Below, one piece after another: positions 57,003 through 63,333 of a stretch of 64,000 bases of DNA. This DNA is from an uncultured Bdellovibrionales bacterium. Its GTDB lineage: Bacteria; Patescibacteriota; Minisyncoccia; Moranbacterales; UBA2206. The stretch's first letter is position 1, and every line of letters begins with the position of its first letter. The stretch lies in assembly GCA_964538685.1 (NCBI GenBank), contig CAZIFD010000003.1:757-64756 (forward strand). The letters run 5' to 3'. The translations under genes were made by a program, and so were the position numbers. Under the pieces are notes generated by a model, which worked only from the letters and a program-made list of their open reading frames with translations, was not told where the DNA came from and searched no databases.

Positions 57003-57080
57003 TGTCATTCCCGCGAAAGCGGGAATCTAGTCTCAAATCTTTGGTTTGCTCACTGGATTCCCGCTTTCGCGGGAATGACA
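57003..57080. repeat. REP-like palindromic element: two inverted 25-bp self-complementary hairpin units (TGTCATTCCCGCGAAAGCGGGAATC / GATTCCCGCTTTCGCGGGAATGACA) separated by 28 bp, inside the atp operon
   Basis: Direct inspection. Related copies at 63226..63333. Confidence 0.75.
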
Positions 57081-57114
57081 TAAAAAAACTAACCAGATGA
57101 ACTTCGTTGCTAAT

Positions 57115-58083
57115 TTATCCCTCCAAAGCCGCCCGACCGGCTGAAATTTCAGAAATTTCTTGGGTAATTTTGCTTTGTCTAATCTGATTATAAGCAAAAG
57201 TTAAATCGGAAACCATTTCTCCGGCCGCCTCAGTCGCATTTCTCATCGCCAACATCCGAGCTGATTCTTTGGAAGCGTTGGATTCCAGAATGGCATGAAA
57301 AATTTGCATTTCAAGCAGTCTTGGAAAAATTTCATTCAATACTGTTTCTGGACTCGGTTCAACCTTATATTCCGACTTTGGTTTATCCAATCCATATTCT
57401 TCTGCCGTTTGATCCATTTCCGCTAATTGTTTTTCAATGTCCACCTTGGAAATCGGCAATAATTGACGAATCTTGGTTTGTTGAATCATCGTTGAAACAT
57501 AGTCAGTATAAACAATCACCACTTTATCATAATTTTTGTTGAGATATTCAGCTTGAATAATTTGCACCAGAGGATAAACATCAGCAATTTTGGGAAGATA
57601 AGTCAGATTGGGAAAAGAAGCAATCAATTTTCCGGTTCCAAATTTCTTGACAATATTTTCCCCTCTTTTTCCAACGGCAATAAAATCCACTTTCAAATCT
57701 TTTCCTTTCTTCTGAGATTCTATCCTCTTGTCTCCCATTCTATTGATAGAAAGACTTTCCGGATTGTTAAGTTGTTCTTTAACTTTCTTAATCACTTGGG
57801 AATTAAAAGATCCACAAAGACCCTTGTTAGATGCCACTATGATCATCAAGACATTTTTCACTTCCCGCACTTCCAAAAGCGGAAAATCGCGTGCTCCTTT
57901 TTCAAAAGCTCTGGCCAAATTAGTTAGCACGCTCCAAGCTGTTCGGGCATAATTTCGGACCTTAAGCACTCCGTCCACCGCTCGGCGCATTTTGGCTGCC
58001 GACACCATCTCCATTGCACGCGTGATTTTCTTGGTGTTTCCAACCGACTTTATTCTTCTTTTGATTTCAAGAGTATTGGGCAT
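57115..58083 (-). CDS. atpG: F-type ATP synthase gamma subunit
   Basis: Homology plus operon position. Confidence 0.9.
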   Translation of the reverse strand: MPNTLEIKRRIKSVGNTKKITRAMEMVSAAKMRRAVDGVLKVRNYARTAWSVLTNLARAFEKGARDFPLLEVREVKNVLMIIVASNKGLCGSFNSQVIKKVKEQLNNPESLSINRMGDKRIESQKKGKDLKVDFIAVGKRGENIVKKFGTGKLIASFPNLTYLPKIADVYPLVQIIQAEYLNKNYDKVVIVYTDYVSTMIQQTKIRQLLPISKVDIEKQLAEMDQTAEEYGLDKPKSEYKVEPSPETVLNEIFPRLLEMQIFHAILESNASKESARMLAMRNATEAAGEMVSDLTFAYNQIRQSKITQEISEISAGRAALEG

Positions 58084-58088
58084 CTGAA

Positions 58089-59597
58089 TTAATTTCCATT
58101 ATTATAAATTTCATTAAAATCTTTGATGGCTTTTTCCAATTTTGCCACCAATTCATCGCTAAGTTCTTTTTCTTTCCTAATCATTTCCAAAACATCGCTT
58201 GCCTGAGCACCGAGAAAACTTTGGAAATCATCTTCCCATTTTTGAATCTTCTCAACCGGCACTTCGTCCAAAAATCCGTTTGTCAAAGCATAAATAACCG
58301 CCACCTGATTTTCAACCGCCATTGGTTCATATTGCTTCTGTTTCAAAAGCTCAACCGTTCTTTTTCCTCTCTCAATTTGCTTTCTGGTTCGCTCATCCAA
58401 GTCCGATCCGAATTGAGCAAAAGCTTCCAATTCACGGAATTGAGCCAAGTCCAATCTGAGTTTTCCAGCCACTTTTTTCATTGCTTTTATTTGAGCCGAA
58501 GAACCGACTCTGGAAACTGAAAGTCCCACATTAATAGCCGGTCGGATTCCTTTGTAAAAAAGATCTGATTCCAAATAAATTTGTCCGTCGGTGATGGAAA
58601 TCACATTGGTCGGAATGTAAGCGCTAACATCTCCGGCTTGAGTTTCAATAATCGGAAGAGCGGTAATTGACCCTCCGCCATAGGCTTCGTCCAATCTAGC
58701 ACTTCTTTCCAAAAGTCTGGAATGCAAATAAAAAATATCTCCCGGATAAGCCTCTCGTCCTGGTGGTCTTCTTAAAATCAAAGAAATTTGACGATAAGCC
58801 CAAGCGTGTTTGCTTAAATCATCATAAACAATCAAAACATCTTTTTCTTGGTCCATAAAAAATTCTCCCAAAGCACAACCGGCATAAGGAGCAATAAAAG
58901 AAAAAGCAGCTGGCTCGGATGATCCGGCTGAAACCACAATGGTGTAATCCATTGCACCTCGTTTTTTAAGCTCCGCTACAATTCTGGCTACTTTGGATTC
59001 TTTCTGACCGATGGCCACATAAACACAAATTATGTCTTGTCCTTTTTGATTAATAATCGTGTCAATTGCCACTGCTGTTTTTCCGGTTTGCCTGTCGCCG
59101 ATAATAAGTTCTCTTTGTCCTCGTCCAATCGGAATCATAGCGTCAATTGCCTTAATTCCGGTTTGCACCGGCTGAGAAACTGATTTTCTTTCAATTACGC
59201 CCGGCGCCACTTTTTCAATCGGATAAAATTTTTCCGATTCAATCTCCTCGCCTCCGTCCAAAACTTTTCCAAGCGGATTAATCACTCTTCCAATCATTTT
59301 TTCGGAAACCGGAACTGACAAAATGCGTCCGGTTGAAACTACTTTGTCGCCTTCCTTAATACCTCCGGCTTCTCCTAAAATCATCACACCCACCTGATCT
59401 TCCTCAAGGTTAAGCACCACTCCAACGGTTCCATCCGGAAATTCCACCATTTCCGAAGCCATTACTTCTCCAAGACCGTTAATTTTGACCACGCCATCTC
59501 CAACTTCAACCACTTCACCGACTTTTTCTTTACCTGCTTCATCTTTCCAGCCTTCAATTTGTTTTTTGATCTGATCAATAATGTAATTTTTGTCCAT
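58089..59597 (-). CDS. atpA: F-type ATP synthase alpha subunit
   Basis: Walker A GDRQTGKT. Confidence 0.95.
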
Positions 59598-59636
59598 AGA
59601 AATTATTTTAATATATTGTATTTAAAAAAATATCAA

Positions 59637-60038
59637 TTACTTGGCAATTTGCGCTTTCAACCTCCGAACTTTTCTCACCACACTCATGTCCCACAAATCA
59701 TCACCGGCTTTTATGATTATTCCTCCCAAAATTTCCGGATTCATTTTCTGACTCAATTCTATTTTTTTTCCGGGATATTGTTTTTCCAAAAATTCCCCAA
59801 TCTTCTTGTTTGTTTCTTCCTGAACCTTTCCGAAAGTTTCTATTTCTACCGGCAATACACTTTCTTTTTCATTAAAAATTTCTTGAAAATTAGCCATAAT
59901 CCGTCCGATATCTTTCCTCCGTTTGTTTTTTTTCACCAAATTTAAAAAATTCAAAACACAAAAATCAATCTCTTTTTGGTTCTTGCCTTGAAGCGACTCA
60001 TACAACCCCTCAGCATACTGTTTGGAGCTTAGTTTCAT
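59637..60038 (-). CDS. atpH: F-type ATP synthase delta subunit (short form)
   Basis: 133 aa OSCP-like, in operon position. Confidence 0.7.
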   Translation of the reverse strand: MKLSSKQYAEGLYESLQGKNQKEIDFCVLNFLNLVKKNKRRKDIGRIMANFQEIFNEKESVLPVEIETFGKVQEETNKKIGEFLEKQYPGKKIELSQKMNPEILGGIIIKAGDDLWDMSVVRKVRRLKAQIAK

Positions 60039-61956: not shown

Positions 61957-62045
61957 TCAACACAATCTATTATGAAGCCTCAGAAAAAAAAAGTCAAGAT
62001 TTGAAAATCCGACCTTTTTCAACTACTTTTTAAAAAAATTCCCCT

Positions 62046-62873
62046 CTAATCCCAACTAAATAGCTTCTTGGCATTATTGGAAGTTGCCTCGGCTACCTCG
62101 GAAATTTCCATTCCTCTAACTTTAGCTATCTTTTCAACCACTTTTTCCACATAAAGCGGTTCGTTTCTTTTACCCCGAAACGGAACTGGCGTAAGATAAG
62201 GACAATCGGTTTCCGTCAAAAAATATTTGAGATCAATATTTTTTAACACTTCTTCATAAACATCAGTGAAGGTAATAATACCATTAAATCCTAAATGAAA
62301 ACCCAGTTCAGCAGTGTAGATTTCAGCTTGCTTCAAATTTCCCGTAAAGCAATGCATCACCCCCCTCAATTTTTCACTGTATTCATTTTTCTTTTTTCGT
62401 AAAATTTCAATCGTATCTTTATGCGCCTCTCTACAATGAACGATGATCGGCAAATCCAACTCTAATGCCAAATCAATTTGTTCGGCAAAAACTTTTTTCT
62501 GAAGTTCCGTATTGTCCGAAGCGTGAAAATAGTCAAGACCAATTTCACCAATCGCCACCACTTTTTTGTTTTTTGCCAACTCGCGATATTTTTCCTTGTC
62601 ATATTCTTCCGGCTTCGGCTGAAATTTAGCCGTTTCCATTTCATCAATCTTTGCCAAAAATTCTCGGCTATCAAGATGAGCCGGATGGAGACCAACTGCT
62701 GCCAAAACGCCTTCCGGATATTTTTTGGCCATTTCAACTGCCCGAGCGCTGGTTCTCAGCTCTGACCCGACATTGATCATCCAAATCCCATTATCCAAAG
62801 CGCGCCTAATCACCGATTCTTGATCGTCTTTGAAAGCGTTAAAATTTACATGGGCATGAGTGTCAATTAACAT
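62046..62873 (-). CDS. tatD: TatD family metal-dependent hydrolase (DNase)
   Basis: MLIDTHAHVNF start and conserved His/Asp/Glu. Conserved metG-tatD order. Confidence 0.9.
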   Translation of the reverse strand: MLIDTHAHVNFNAFKDDQESVIRRALDNGIWMINVGSELRTSARAVEMAKKYPEGVLAAVGLHPAHLDSREFLAKIDEMETAKFQPKPEEYDKEKYRELAKNKKVVAIGEIGLDYFHASDNTELQKKVFAEQIDLALELDLPIIVHCREAHKDTIEILRKKKNEYSEKLRGVMHCFTGNLKQAEIYTAELGFHLGFNGIITFTDVYEEVLKNIDLKYFLTETDCPYLTPVPFRGKRNEPLYVEKVVEKIAKVRGMEISEVAEATSNNAKKLFSWD

Positions 62874-62922
62874 ACTTTTTTTATCCCTGTTTTTATAAGA
62901 ATAAACTTCGGTGGGAACTGGC

Positions 62923-63213
62923 TCATTTAATTATATTGAAATATAAATCATTCCAATTGGGATTATCTTTTTCAATCAATTTTATCTTCCAACTTCTATT
63001 CCATTTTTTAAGTTGTTTTTCTCTAGTGATAGCCGAATTAATATAGTCTGCTTGCTCATAATATACTAATTTGTGTACATTGTATTTTTTTGTGAAACCA
63101 TCCGCTAATTTTTCTCTATGTTCTTGAATTCTCTTGATTAAATTTGAAGTTACTCCGATGTATAAGGTACTGTTTCTTTGATTAGTTAAAATATAAACGA
63201 AATAGCTTTTCAT
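62923..63213 (-). CDS. GIY-YIG family nuclease (96 aa)
   Basis: FVYILTN...LYIGVTSNLIKRIQEHR...E...KQLKKW. Confidence 0.75.
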   Translation of the reverse strand: MKSYFVYILTNQRNSTLYIGVTSNLIKRIQEHREKLADGFTKKYNVHKLVYYEQADYINSAITREKQLKKWNRSWKIKLIEKDNPNWNDLYFNIIK

Positions 63214-63225
63214 TAAACTTTTCCA

Positions 63226-63333
63226 CTGGATTCCCAGTCAAGCTGGGAATGACATAAAAAAATTAAAATTAGCCAGTAGACATTTGGAAATGAGATTTAT
63301 CTTGTTGTCATTCCTGCGAAAGCGGGAATCCAG
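63226..63333. repeat. REP-like palindromic element (CTGGATTCCCAGTCAAGCTGGGAATGACA ... TGTCATTCCTGCGAAAGCGGGAATCCAG), 13 bp upstream of the GIY-YIG start
   Basis: Same hairpin-unit family as 57003..57080, with the units in swapped order. Confidence 0.75.

What the first reader, a model, noticed from the sequence alone, without database searches (positions are those of the whole stretch)
57003..63333. Family of self-palindromic REP-like hairpin units forming two inverted-pair elements
The unit TGTCATTCC(C/T)GCGAAAGCGGGAATC is itself a hairpin. It occurs four times as two inverted pairs: inside the ATP synthase operon between atpG and atpD, and 13 bp upstream of a GIY-YIG gene. These resemble REP/BIME or MITE-like elements, which can be substrates of IS200/IS605 TnpA-REP transposases, mRNA-stability elements or recombination hotspots. 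They are unusual in a streamlined genome.
Basis: seen in the sequence. Interest (0 to 1): 0.55.

Follow-up and report, generated by a model that had tools for sequence, protein, structure and literature searches.

The report
Ssn nuclease gene and its hairpin sites
The four hairpins are recognition sites (NTS/SRM repeats) of a small single-strand-DNA-cutting GIY-YIG nuclease, Ssn, whose gene lies right beside one of them. The pairing was described in 2025, so this is a new example from a candidate-phyla bacterium, not a new kind of element.

Summary
Four ~29-nt units (TGTCA-ATTCCCGC-loop-GCGGGAAT-CCAGT) occur at 57003-57031(+), 57052-57080(-), 63225-63254(-) and 63306-63334(+); none is expected by chance. 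They match the published NTS/SRM hairpin (CGTCATTCCCGCGMAVGCGGGAATCYRG, which contains the Neisseria dRS3 core). The adjacent 96-aa GIY-YIG gene (62923-63213, -) is an Ssn-family nuclease. It is 63% identical to Neisseria SsnA and keeps all three residues that were mutated in the published work (Chenal et al. 2025, PMC11893778).

In 80 homologous loci from more than 15 phyla, 91% carry an oriented hairpin next to the gene. The typical layout is GTCA…CCAG – ssn – CTGG…TGAC. Here the 5' unit is intact and the 3' unit has decayed. The atpG–atpD pair is an ssn-less doublet with the same end geometry. It is absent from two relatives, so it is a lineage-specific indel.

The partner enzyme is Ssn, not a TnpA-REP/RAYT transposase. 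The element is common in Patescibacteria. The gene is under strong purifying selection (dN/dS 0.08), and its 5' hairpin is 29/30 conserved although synonymous sites are saturated.

Verdict: a new member of a known kind, of modest interest. Whether Ssn mobilises these units is still open.

The parts
57003..57031 (+). NTS/SRM unit A (TGTCATTCCCGCGAAAGCGGGAATCTAGT). The cleavable (forward) strand is +.
   Evidence: Matches the published SRM search sequence and 27/28 positions of the NTS consensus. ssDNA hairpin of -9.0 kcal/mol.
57052..57080 (-). NTS/SRM unit B (TGTCATTCCCGCGAAAGCGGGAATCCAGT on the - strand).
57003..57080 (.). ssn-less forward-reverse NTS doublet with a 20-nt spacer, in the atpG-atpD intergenic region. 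It puts one forward-oriented NTS on each strand.
   Evidence: inverted repeat I1. It has the same geometry as ssn cassettes and as 83 short doublets in other loci. It is absent from the same intergenic region in relatives L205 and L206. As RNA, the 156-nt atpG-atpD interval containing it folds at -58.4 kcal/mol, z = -7.7.
63225..63254 (-). Unit C, the 5' NTS of the ssn cassette. It is a variant with stem top and loop CCCAGCTTGACTGGG and ends 11 nt before the ssn ATG.
   Evidence: It is 29/30 identical to the unit at the same place in relative L206, although synonymous sites of ssn are saturated.
63306..63334 (+). Unit D, a solo NTS unit in reverse orientation relative to ssn. It lies 7 nt after the metG stop and carries a C->T change that gives a T-G mismatch in the stem.
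   Evidence: It is not matched by the strict SRM expression.
62923..63213 (-). ssn gene: a 96-aa single-domain GIY-YIG nuclease of the Ssn family.
   Evidence: Pfam GIY-YIG, E = 1.3e-16. 63% identity (E = 3e-43) to the 94-aa N. gonorrhoeae SsnA, with Y6/Y17/E64 equivalents conserved. dN/dS = 0.08 against the syntenic orthologue in L206.
62874..62922 (-). Decayed 3' NTS of the cassette (GCCAGTTCCCACCGAAG…). It no longer forms a hairpin.
   Evidence: Relative L206 has an intact CTAGATTCCCGATCGGAGTCGGGAATGACA at this position. The window sequence does not fold: -1.4 kcal/mol, z = +0.5.

Best explanation
The four hairpins are NTS/SRM-type sites of an Ssn system, and the neighbouring 96-aa GIY-YIG gene encodes the cognate Ssn nuclease. 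The mechanism below is taken from the characterised Neisseria, N. elongata, N. wadsworthii and Wolbachia enzymes. Ssn binds the hairpin only when the DNA is single-stranded and only on the strand that reads GTCA-stem-loop-stem-CCAG. It then nicks a few nucleotides 5' of the hairpin. It does not act on dsDNA or RNA.

Anatomy in this window:
- Unit C, ssn and a decayed 3' unit are the remains of the canonical NTS-ssn-NTS cassette.
- Unit D is a solo site.
- The atpG-atpD pair is an ssn-less doublet with the same outward-facing GTCA ends. Whichever strand becomes single-stranded therefore carries one cleavable site.

Biological role (inferred): control of recombination and processing of ssDNA, such as DNA taken up by transformation. 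The window also encodes type IV pilus proteins and a ComFC-like protein. The gene and its 5' hairpin have been kept by selection in this lineage, so they look like a resident, domesticated system. They do not look like a recently arrived selfish gene. Any effect of the doublet on atp mRNA would be a by-product.
For: Shown here:
- The units are non-random and fold as ssDNA hairpins with asymmetric tails.
- Units A and B match the published SRM expression and 27/28 positions of the NTS consensus (PMC11893778).
- The protein is 63% identical to Neisseria SsnA, with the mutated catalytic residues conserved.
- In 80 ssn-centred loci from more than 15 phyla, 73 have an adjacent oriented unit: 54 a forward unit upstream, 64 a reverse unit downstream, 45 both.
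- The two flanking units of a cassette resemble each other more than units of other cassettes do (0.74 vs 0.55; 0 of 2000 permutations reach the observed value).
- In three IMG/VR loci picked only by the motif, the ssn homologue lies directly beside it.
- The syntenic orthologue in L206 gives dN/dS 0.08 and dS 1.26, yet the 5' unit is 29/30 identical.
- PilM, PilB, PilT, PilC and a ComFC-like protein are in the window.

From the literature: ssDNA-only, strand-specific binding and upstream cleavage, and the restriction of NTS-bearing transforming DNA in N. meningitidis.
Against: - No biochemistry exists for this protein or for any Patescibacteria homologue.
- The gene's own flanking unit C has a different stem top and loop from units A, B and D. 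The paper reports that changing the palindrome while keeping the structure abolished Nm SsnA activity. It is therefore uncertain which units this enzyme cuts.
- Units C and D do not match the strict SRM expression.
- The 3' unit of the cassette has decayed.
- The genome-wide copy number is unknown; only 4 units were seen in 64 kb.
- The role outside Neisseria is explicitly unknown.
- Natural transformation has not been shown for this organism.
Confidence: 0.85

Rival explanations
1. Active mobile element. NTS-ssn-NTS would be an autonomous insertion-sequence-like or homing element that uses the GIY-YIG ssDNA nuclease as its mobilising enzyme, with the ssn-less doublets as its non-autonomous (MITE/REPIN-like) derivatives. 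This is compatible with the best explanation for what the parts are, but differs on what they do.
For: - Cassette ends are inverted copies with outward GTCA termini.
- Ssn proteins are 57-69% identical across more than 15 phyla.
- The cassette is absent at the metG|tatD junction in L204, where only 2 nt separate the two genes, and is present in the window and L206. Its boundaries fall within about 4 nt of the TGTCA/TGACA ends.
- Doublets and solo units sit at different intergenic sites in relatives: atpG-atpD here, atpF-atpH in L205, upstream of metG in L206.
- Forward-reverse doublets are the commonest arrangement of neighbouring units (83 with a gap of 100 nt or less, against 50, 14 and 13 for the other orientations). 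Several genomes hold multiple doublets with near-identical spacers.
- The authors of PMC11893778 raise the IS/RAYT analogy.
Against: - No target-site duplication is visible at the atp doublet (flanks TTTA / ATTG).
- The window's doublet spacer was not found anywhere in the JGI metagenome contigs.
- ssn here has been at the same site long enough for synonymous saturation and is under strong purifying selection, which fits domestication better than ongoing transposition.
- Ssn has a demonstrated nuclease activity only; no strand transfer or ligation has been shown.
- The predicted cuts fall on opposite strands at the two ends, unlike IS200/IS605.
Confidence: 0.2
2. RNA-level element. The hairpins would act mainly in transcripts, as mRNA stabilisers, processing sites or attenuators in the atp operon and as a translational or transcriptional control of the GIY-YIG gene, like E. 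coli REP sequences in operons.
For: - Both elements are intergenic within co-oriented gene strings and would be transcribed.
- The atp doublet folds very strongly as RNA (-58.4 kcal/mol, z = -7.7).
- Unit C ends 11 nt before the ATG.
- Sub-threshold Rfam hits to sRNAs FtrB and CbSR3 show that the same kind of hairpin occurs in annotated sRNAs.
Against: - No unit is followed by a T-run, and none scored as a terminator.
- The strictly conserved asymmetric tails (GTC… and …CCAG) and the same sequence in genomes of 32-72% GC point to a sequence-specific protein partner.
- Characterised Ssn does not bind RNA.
- Units occur in both orientations relative to transcription.
Confidence: 0.1
3. Classical REP/BIME elements serviced by a REP-associated tyrosine transposase (RAYT, IS200/IS605 TnpA-like).
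For: General resemblance only: short oriented extragenic palindromes, inverted doublets like REPINs, and a single associated gene flanked by the repeats.
Against: - The flanked gene is a GIY-YIG nuclease, not a Y1 HUH transposase.
- All genes next to the units are metG, ssn, tatD, atpG and atpD.
- The association with the GIY-YIG gene holds in 73 of 80 loci and is published.
Confidence: 0.03

Closest known systems
Ssn nuclease / NTS-SRM repeats (SsnA NMV_0044 of Neisseria meningitidis; GIY-YIG cd10448; Chenal et al., Nat Commun 2025, PMC11893778)
   Same: - A single-domain GIY-YIG protein of about 95 aa, 63% identical to Neisseria SsnA, with the catalytic residues kept.
- The hairpin has the same core and the same asymmetric tails.
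- The gene is directly flanked by the hairpin.
- Additional copies lie in intergenic regions.
   Different: - The host is a low-GC (about 36%) Patescibacteria/CPR genome, a group not mentioned in the paper's main text.
- The 3' flanking unit has decayed.
- The gene's own 5' unit is a stem-top and loop variant (CAGCTTGACTG).
- Only 4 units were seen in 64 kb, against hundreds per genome in pathogenic Neisseria.
- Activity has not been tested.
Neisseria dRS3 repeats and NIMEs (Neisseria intergenic mosaic elements)
   Same: - Units A and B contain a perfect dRS3 core, ATTCCC-N8-GGGAAT.
- The atp doublet (two inverted units around a short spacer) has the same layout as the Neisseria 50-51-nt-spacer doublets recovered.
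   Different: - The spacer is 20 nt and unrelated in sequence.
- Single doublets occur here, not long mosaic arrays.
- Whether dRS3-targeting phages or IS110-type elements (known in Neisseria, from my own knowledge) exist here was not examined.
REP/REPIN-RAYT systems (IS200/IS605-derived)
   Same: It works in a similar way in outline. Oriented extragenic hairpins are recognised as ssDNA by a small nuclease encoded by a single gene that is itself flanked by the repeats. Inverted doublets are the common repeat unit.
   Different: - The enzyme fold and chemistry differ: GIY-YIG hydrolytic nuclease against HUH Y1 covalent transesterase.
- The conserved tails are different.
- No transposition activity has been shown for Ssn.
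MITEs
   Same: A short non-coding element with 29-nt terminal inverted repeats that match the ends of a protein-coding relative. It shows presence/absence polymorphism among relatives.
   Different: No target-site duplication was seen. No second copy with the same internal sequence was found. No transposase has been demonstrated.

Membership tests
Ssn nuclease family (GIY-YIG cd10448) | Single-domain GIY-YIG protein of about 94-100 aa, homologous to N. meningitidis SsnA | tested here: met
   96 aa; the Pfam GIY-YIG domain covers residues 4-77. BLASTP against the 94-aa N. gonorrhoeae SsnA homologue (L203 5989-6273) gives 63% identity over 90 aa, E = 3e-43. cd10448 itself could not be scored because CDD is not available.
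Ssn nuclease family (GIY-YIG cd10448) | Residues whose mutation abolishes nuclease activity (Nm Y6, Y17, E64) are present | tested here: met
   They align with window Y7, Y18 and E65. All are invariant in 28 homologues. The mutagenesis is described in PMC11893778.
Ssn nuclease family (GIY-YIG cd10448) | Gene flanked by NTS/SRM hairpins, typically on both sides in inverted orientation | tested here: met
   The 5' unit C ends 11 nt before the ATG. The 3' unit is decayed here but intact in the syntenic orthologue L206. The paper itself finds both-side flanking in only 42% of homologues.
Ssn nuclease family (GIY-YIG cd10448) | Binds NTS only as ssDNA, on one strand only, and cleaves a few nt upstream; no activity on dsDNA or RNA | not testable with these tools
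   This needs purified protein and labelled oligonucleotides. It is inferred from four characterised homologues.
NTS / SRM repeat | Matches NTS CGTCATTCCCGCGMAVGCGGGAATCYRG or the SRM expression HGTCWYN(0-2)YYVSBRHN(0-5)WNVSBRGN(0-2)RNCYNB | tested here: met
   Units A and B match the SRM expression and 27/28 NTS positions (T instead of the first C). Units C and D do not match the strict expression: C has a variant stem top and a 5-nt loop, and D has a C->T change in the stem. Both keep the GTCA and CCAG tails and the hairpin.
NTS / SRM repeat | Many copies per genome, enriched over shuffled sequence | tested here: inconclusive
   In the 64-kb window there are 3-4 units against 0 in shuffles. 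The rest of the genome could not be read. Logan contigs of the same organism end inside units B and C. That is consistent with repeats but is not proof.
REP/BIME with RAYT | Associated single-copy Y1 (HUH) transposase gene flanked by the repeats | tested here: not met
   The flanked gene is GIY-YIG. The genes adjoining the units are metG, tatD, atpG and atpD. The remainder of the genome was not examined.
MITE | Terminal inverted repeats plus a target-site duplication, with multiple copies sharing the internal sequence | tested here: inconclusive
   TIRs are present: 29 nt, 97%. No direct repeat flanks 57003-57080. An exact search for the spacer in JGI metagenome contigs found nothing. In other genomes, doublets with conserved spacers are multi-copy.
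Intrinsic terminator | GC-rich hairpin followed by a T-run | tested here: not met
   None of the four units was called as a terminator, and no T-run follows any of them.

The most novel reading that the evidence does not exclude
NTS-ssn-NTS cassettes and the ssn-less forward-reverse doublets (such as the one in the atp operon) are mobilised by Ssn itself. That would make a 96-aa GIY-YIG ssDNA nuclease the enzyme of a previously unrecognised class of bacterial mobile element, functionally parallel to REPIN-RAYT. Candidate-phyla genomes would then carry long-domesticated copies. The arrays of outer half-sites at 21-22-nt spacing seen next to some cassettes could be footprints of that process.
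Probability: 0.2. Interest if true: 0.7.

Novelty: new member of a known kind. Interest (0 to 1): 0.3.

Why it matters
The Ssn/NTS pairing was published only in 2025, and its role outside Neisseria is unknown. This window adds four things:
- It places a well-preserved example in a reduced Patescibacteria genome that also encodes type IV pilus and ComFC-like proteins.
- It shows that both the gene and its 5' hairpin have been held by selection for a long time.
- It shows that hairpin units and doublets come and go between relatives.
- It shows that the inverted doublet with outward GTCA ends is the commonest arrangement of neighbouring units across phyla.

These points bear on the open question of whether the system is a domesticated mobile element or a host tool for handling single-stranded DNA. 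Annotators should also know these hairpins, because they break assemblies and create spurious ORF tails.

Tried and rejected
- Rfam: there are no family-level hits. Only sub-threshold matches to FtrB, CbSR3 and miRNA-like hairpin models appear, because those models contain similar hairpins. None is a real membership.
- Terminator and promoter scans: nothing at the units.
- Exact search for the atp doublet spacer in JGI metagenome contigs: 0 hits. This gives no support for a multi-copy MITE with this spacer, but the organism may simply not be in that collection.
- Genome-wide copy number in this organism: it could not be obtained.
- Logan contig ends as evidence of multi-copy: suggestive only. 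Palindromes and strain variation can also break de Bruijn graphs.
- PDB sequence search: no solved structure of a close homologue.
- Paper supplements are not held, so I could not check whether the authors' tables include Patescibacteria.
- My first permissive hairpin finder gave many AT-rich false positives. I replaced it with a stricter one that gives 0 hits in 20 shuffles.
- Recent horizontal transfer of ssn into this locus: rejected because synonymous sites are saturated against the syntenic orthologue.

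
Full report
**1. The observation**

It gave no hit in 100 dinucleotide-preserving shuffles. The repeat finder gives 29-nt arms at 57003-57031 and 57052-57080, 97% complementary and 20 nt apart, and links them to 63306-63334.

A fourth unit at 63225-63254(-) has the same tails and lower stem. Its stem top and loop are CCCAGCTTGACTGGG instead of CCCGCGAAAGCGGG, which is a compensated variant. As ssDNA every unit folds into an 8-bp hairpin with a 4-nt 5' tail (TGTC) and a 5-nt 3' tail (CCAGT or CTAGT). The energies are -9.0, -9.0, -7.3 and -5.8 kcal/mol.

Genes here run on the minus strand in the order metG (stop 63342), a 96-aa GIY-YIG gene (63213-62923), tatD, atpI-like, atpB…atpA, atpG (stop 57115) and atpD (start ~56971).

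The two pairs differ in geometry. I write F for the strand reading GTCA…CCAG and R for its complement.
- The atp pair is F-20 nt-R, with the GTCA ends outward.
- The second pair, read in the direction of the genes, is R (unit D), then 51 nt, then F (unit C), then 11 nt, then the ATG.

**2. What it is**

The 24-nt core GTCATTCCCGC-N4-GCGGGAATC, usually followed by CAG, is present in at least 120 IMG/VR contigs whose GC content ranges from 32% to 72%. Three of those contigs contain a homologue of the window's GIY-YIG protein, and in all three the motif lies directly beside it.

I retrieved 80 loci from the genome collection using the protein. The proteins are 57-69% identical to the query. The hosts include Moraniibacteriota, Saccharibacteria, Planctomycetota, Verrucomicrobiota, Omnitrophota, Chlorobiaceae, cyanobacteria, many Pseudomonadota and Neisseria gonorrhoeae. 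These loci show one recurring layout: GTCATTCCCGCGnAnGCGGGAATCCAG, about 6-40 nt, ATG-gene-stop, about 3-40 nt, then CTGGATTCCCGC….GCGGGAATGAC.

I scored this with a strict finder that gives 0 hits in 20 shuffles of the window.

| Feature in the 80 loci | Loci |
|---|---|
| Adjacent oriented unit of either kind | 73 |
| F unit upstream | 54 |
| R unit downstream | 64 |
| Both | 45 |

The two flanking units of a cassette are more alike than units from different cassettes (0.74 vs 0.55; 0 of 2000 permutations reach the observed value).

**3. Literature**

A full-text search found one paper that describes exactly this: Chenal et al., Nat Commun 2025, PMC11893778. What follows is taken from it.
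- The hairpin is the 'NTS', CGTCATTCCCGCGMAVGCGGGAATCYRG, which contains the dRS3 core. More generally it is an 'Ssn-related motif' (SRM).
- The gene is ssnA (NMV_0044), the founding member of the Ssn family (GIY-YIG cd10448).
- SsnA binds the NTS only as ssDNA and only on one strand. It cuts a few nucleotides upstream and does not touch dsDNA or RNA.
- The C just after the palindrome matters most for binding. The three bases before the palindrome matter most for cutting.
- Changing the palindrome while keeping the hairpin abolishes activity.
- In N. meningitidis the enzyme lowers transformation by NTS-bearing DNA about five-fold.
- 71% of homologues have an SRM nearby and 42% have one on both sides.
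- The authors note the IS-like NTS-ssnA-NTS layout and the analogy with REP-RAYT. They state that the role outside Neisseria is unknown.

**4. Membership tests**

- The window protein is 63% identical (E = 3e-43) to the 94-aa N. gonorrhoeae SsnA homologue. The residues mutated in the paper (Y6, Y17, E64) align with Y7, Y18 and E65. They are invariant in 28 homologues.
- Units A and B match the published SRM expression and 27/28 NTS positions.
- Units C and D fail the strict expression but keep the tails and the hairpin.
- The 3' unit of the cassette has decayed here to GCCAGTTCCCACCGAAG…, which does not fold. The syntenic orthologue in relative L206 still has the full layout: TGTCATTCCCAGCTTGACTGGGAATCTAGT-ssn-CTAGATTCCCGATCGGAGTCGGGAATGACA.
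- No RAYT-type gene adjoins any unit.
- None of the units resembles an intrinsic terminator.

**5. History in this lineage**

I recovered three family-level relatives. Their housekeeping proteins are 36-90% identical to those of the window.

| Relative | metG–tatD junction | atpG–atpD gap | Other units |
|---|---|---|---|
| L204 | metG and tatD 2 nt apart; no ssn | not covered | none found |
| L205 | an unrelated 101-aa ORF | 28 nt, no doublet | solo R unit between atpF and atpH |
| L206 | ssn at the same place as here | 41 nt, no doublet | F-21 nt-R doublet upstream of metG |

Between the window and L206, ssn has dN/dS of 0.08 and dS of 1.26, which is saturated. The non-coding 5' unit is nevertheless 29/30 identical.

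I draw two conclusions. The gene and its own hairpin are old residents kept by selection, not a recent arrival.

**6. Doublets**

Across 206 fetched loci (1.9 Mb, 568 units), I counted neighbouring units with gaps of 100 nt or less.

| Arrangement | Count |
|---|---|
| F-R | 83 |
| R-F | 50 |
| F-F | 14 |
| R-R | 13 |

A second F-R peak at 200-400 nt corresponds to ssn cassettes. Several genomes hold multiple F-R doublets with near-identical spacers. The atp element is therefore a typical ssn-less doublet.

Under the published enzymology, a doublet places one cleavable site on each strand, with the predicted nicks just outside its two ends. That offers a simple functional reason for inverted pairs, but it is my inference.

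The window's own spacer was not found in JGI metagenome contigs. No target-site duplication flanks the doublet.

**7. Mechanism and confidence**

That these are an Ssn gene and its NTS/SRM sites: about 0.85.

That the biological role concerns handling of ssDNA, for example DNA taken up by transformation, is inference. The window does encode PilM, PilB, PilT, PilC and a ComFC-like protein. I hold this role at about 0.4.

Active mobilisation by Ssn remains possible, at about 0.2. RNA-level effects of the atp doublet are plausible as by-products: the 156-nt atpG-atpD interval containing it folds at -58.4 kcal/mol as RNA.

**8. Verdict**

The system is already described, so this is a new member of a known kind in a Patescibacteria genome, and it is of modest interest.

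Noticed in passing
window 46497-46895: A second, different GIY-YIG ORF (46575-46814, +, 79 aa) lies between two tRNA-Lys(CTT) sequences. Upstream is a partial copy of the tRNA 5' part, interrupted by a 41-nt GC-rich hairpin (46497-46566). Downstream is the intact tRNA-Lys(CTT) gene (46822-46895). It looks like a GIY-YIG cassette inserted at a tRNA gene with duplication of the target.
   Followed up: partly
window 27152-27251 and 33646-33745: A 100-nt direct repeat, 98% identical, that begins with a 22-nt palindrome (ATTCCTGAATTAATTCAGGAAT). It is unrelated to the NTS family. It may be a duplicated promoter or leader of minus-strand genes.
   Followed up: partly
L126, L141, L149, L150, L201 and others, just outside the R unit of ssn cassettes: Extra copies of the outer half-site (CGGGAATGAC) recur outward from the cassette at a modal 21-22-nt spacing in 12 of 62 loci (16 outward hits against 4 inward). 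The mirror image, GTCATTCCCGC followed after 10-12 nt by a full unit, is seen upstream of F units in many IMG/VR loci. The origin is unexplained.
   Followed up: partly
L214, L218, L221, L225, L228, L234, L243, L245 (JGI metagenome contigs): An F-R NTS doublet is embedded in a longer inverted repeat (…CGTAAAAAGTC… / …GACTTTTTACG…). This suggests a larger MITE-like family built around the doublet.
   Followed up: no
window 8039-15923: A type IV pilus gene cluster (PilC 8039-9247, PilT-like 9289-10359, PilB 10841-12574, PilM 13937-15046) and a ComFC-like protein with a double zinc ribbon plus a phosphoribosyltransferase domain (15138-15923). These are parts of a DNA-uptake apparatus in the same window as ssn.
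   Followed up: partly
L121-L123 (Logan contigs of the same organism): Two independent short-read assemblies (L121, L122) end at the same base inside unit B, and two (L122, L123) start inside unit C. This is consistent with these units being repeated, or variable, in the source populations.
   Followed up: partly
Rfam RF02748 (FtrB) and RF02563 (CbSR3) against window 56956-57085 and 63285-63352: The consensus of the Francisella sRNA FtrB contains guCauuCcCGCGuAGGCGgGaauC, an NTS-like hairpin. Some annotated sRNAs may therefore be transcripts of Ssn-type repeats.
   Followed up: no
L206 and window, metG-ssn-tatD: Ssn is 84% identical between the two genomes, as conserved as AtpD (84%) and far more than TatD (59%) or the MetG C-terminus (59%).
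   Followed up: yes
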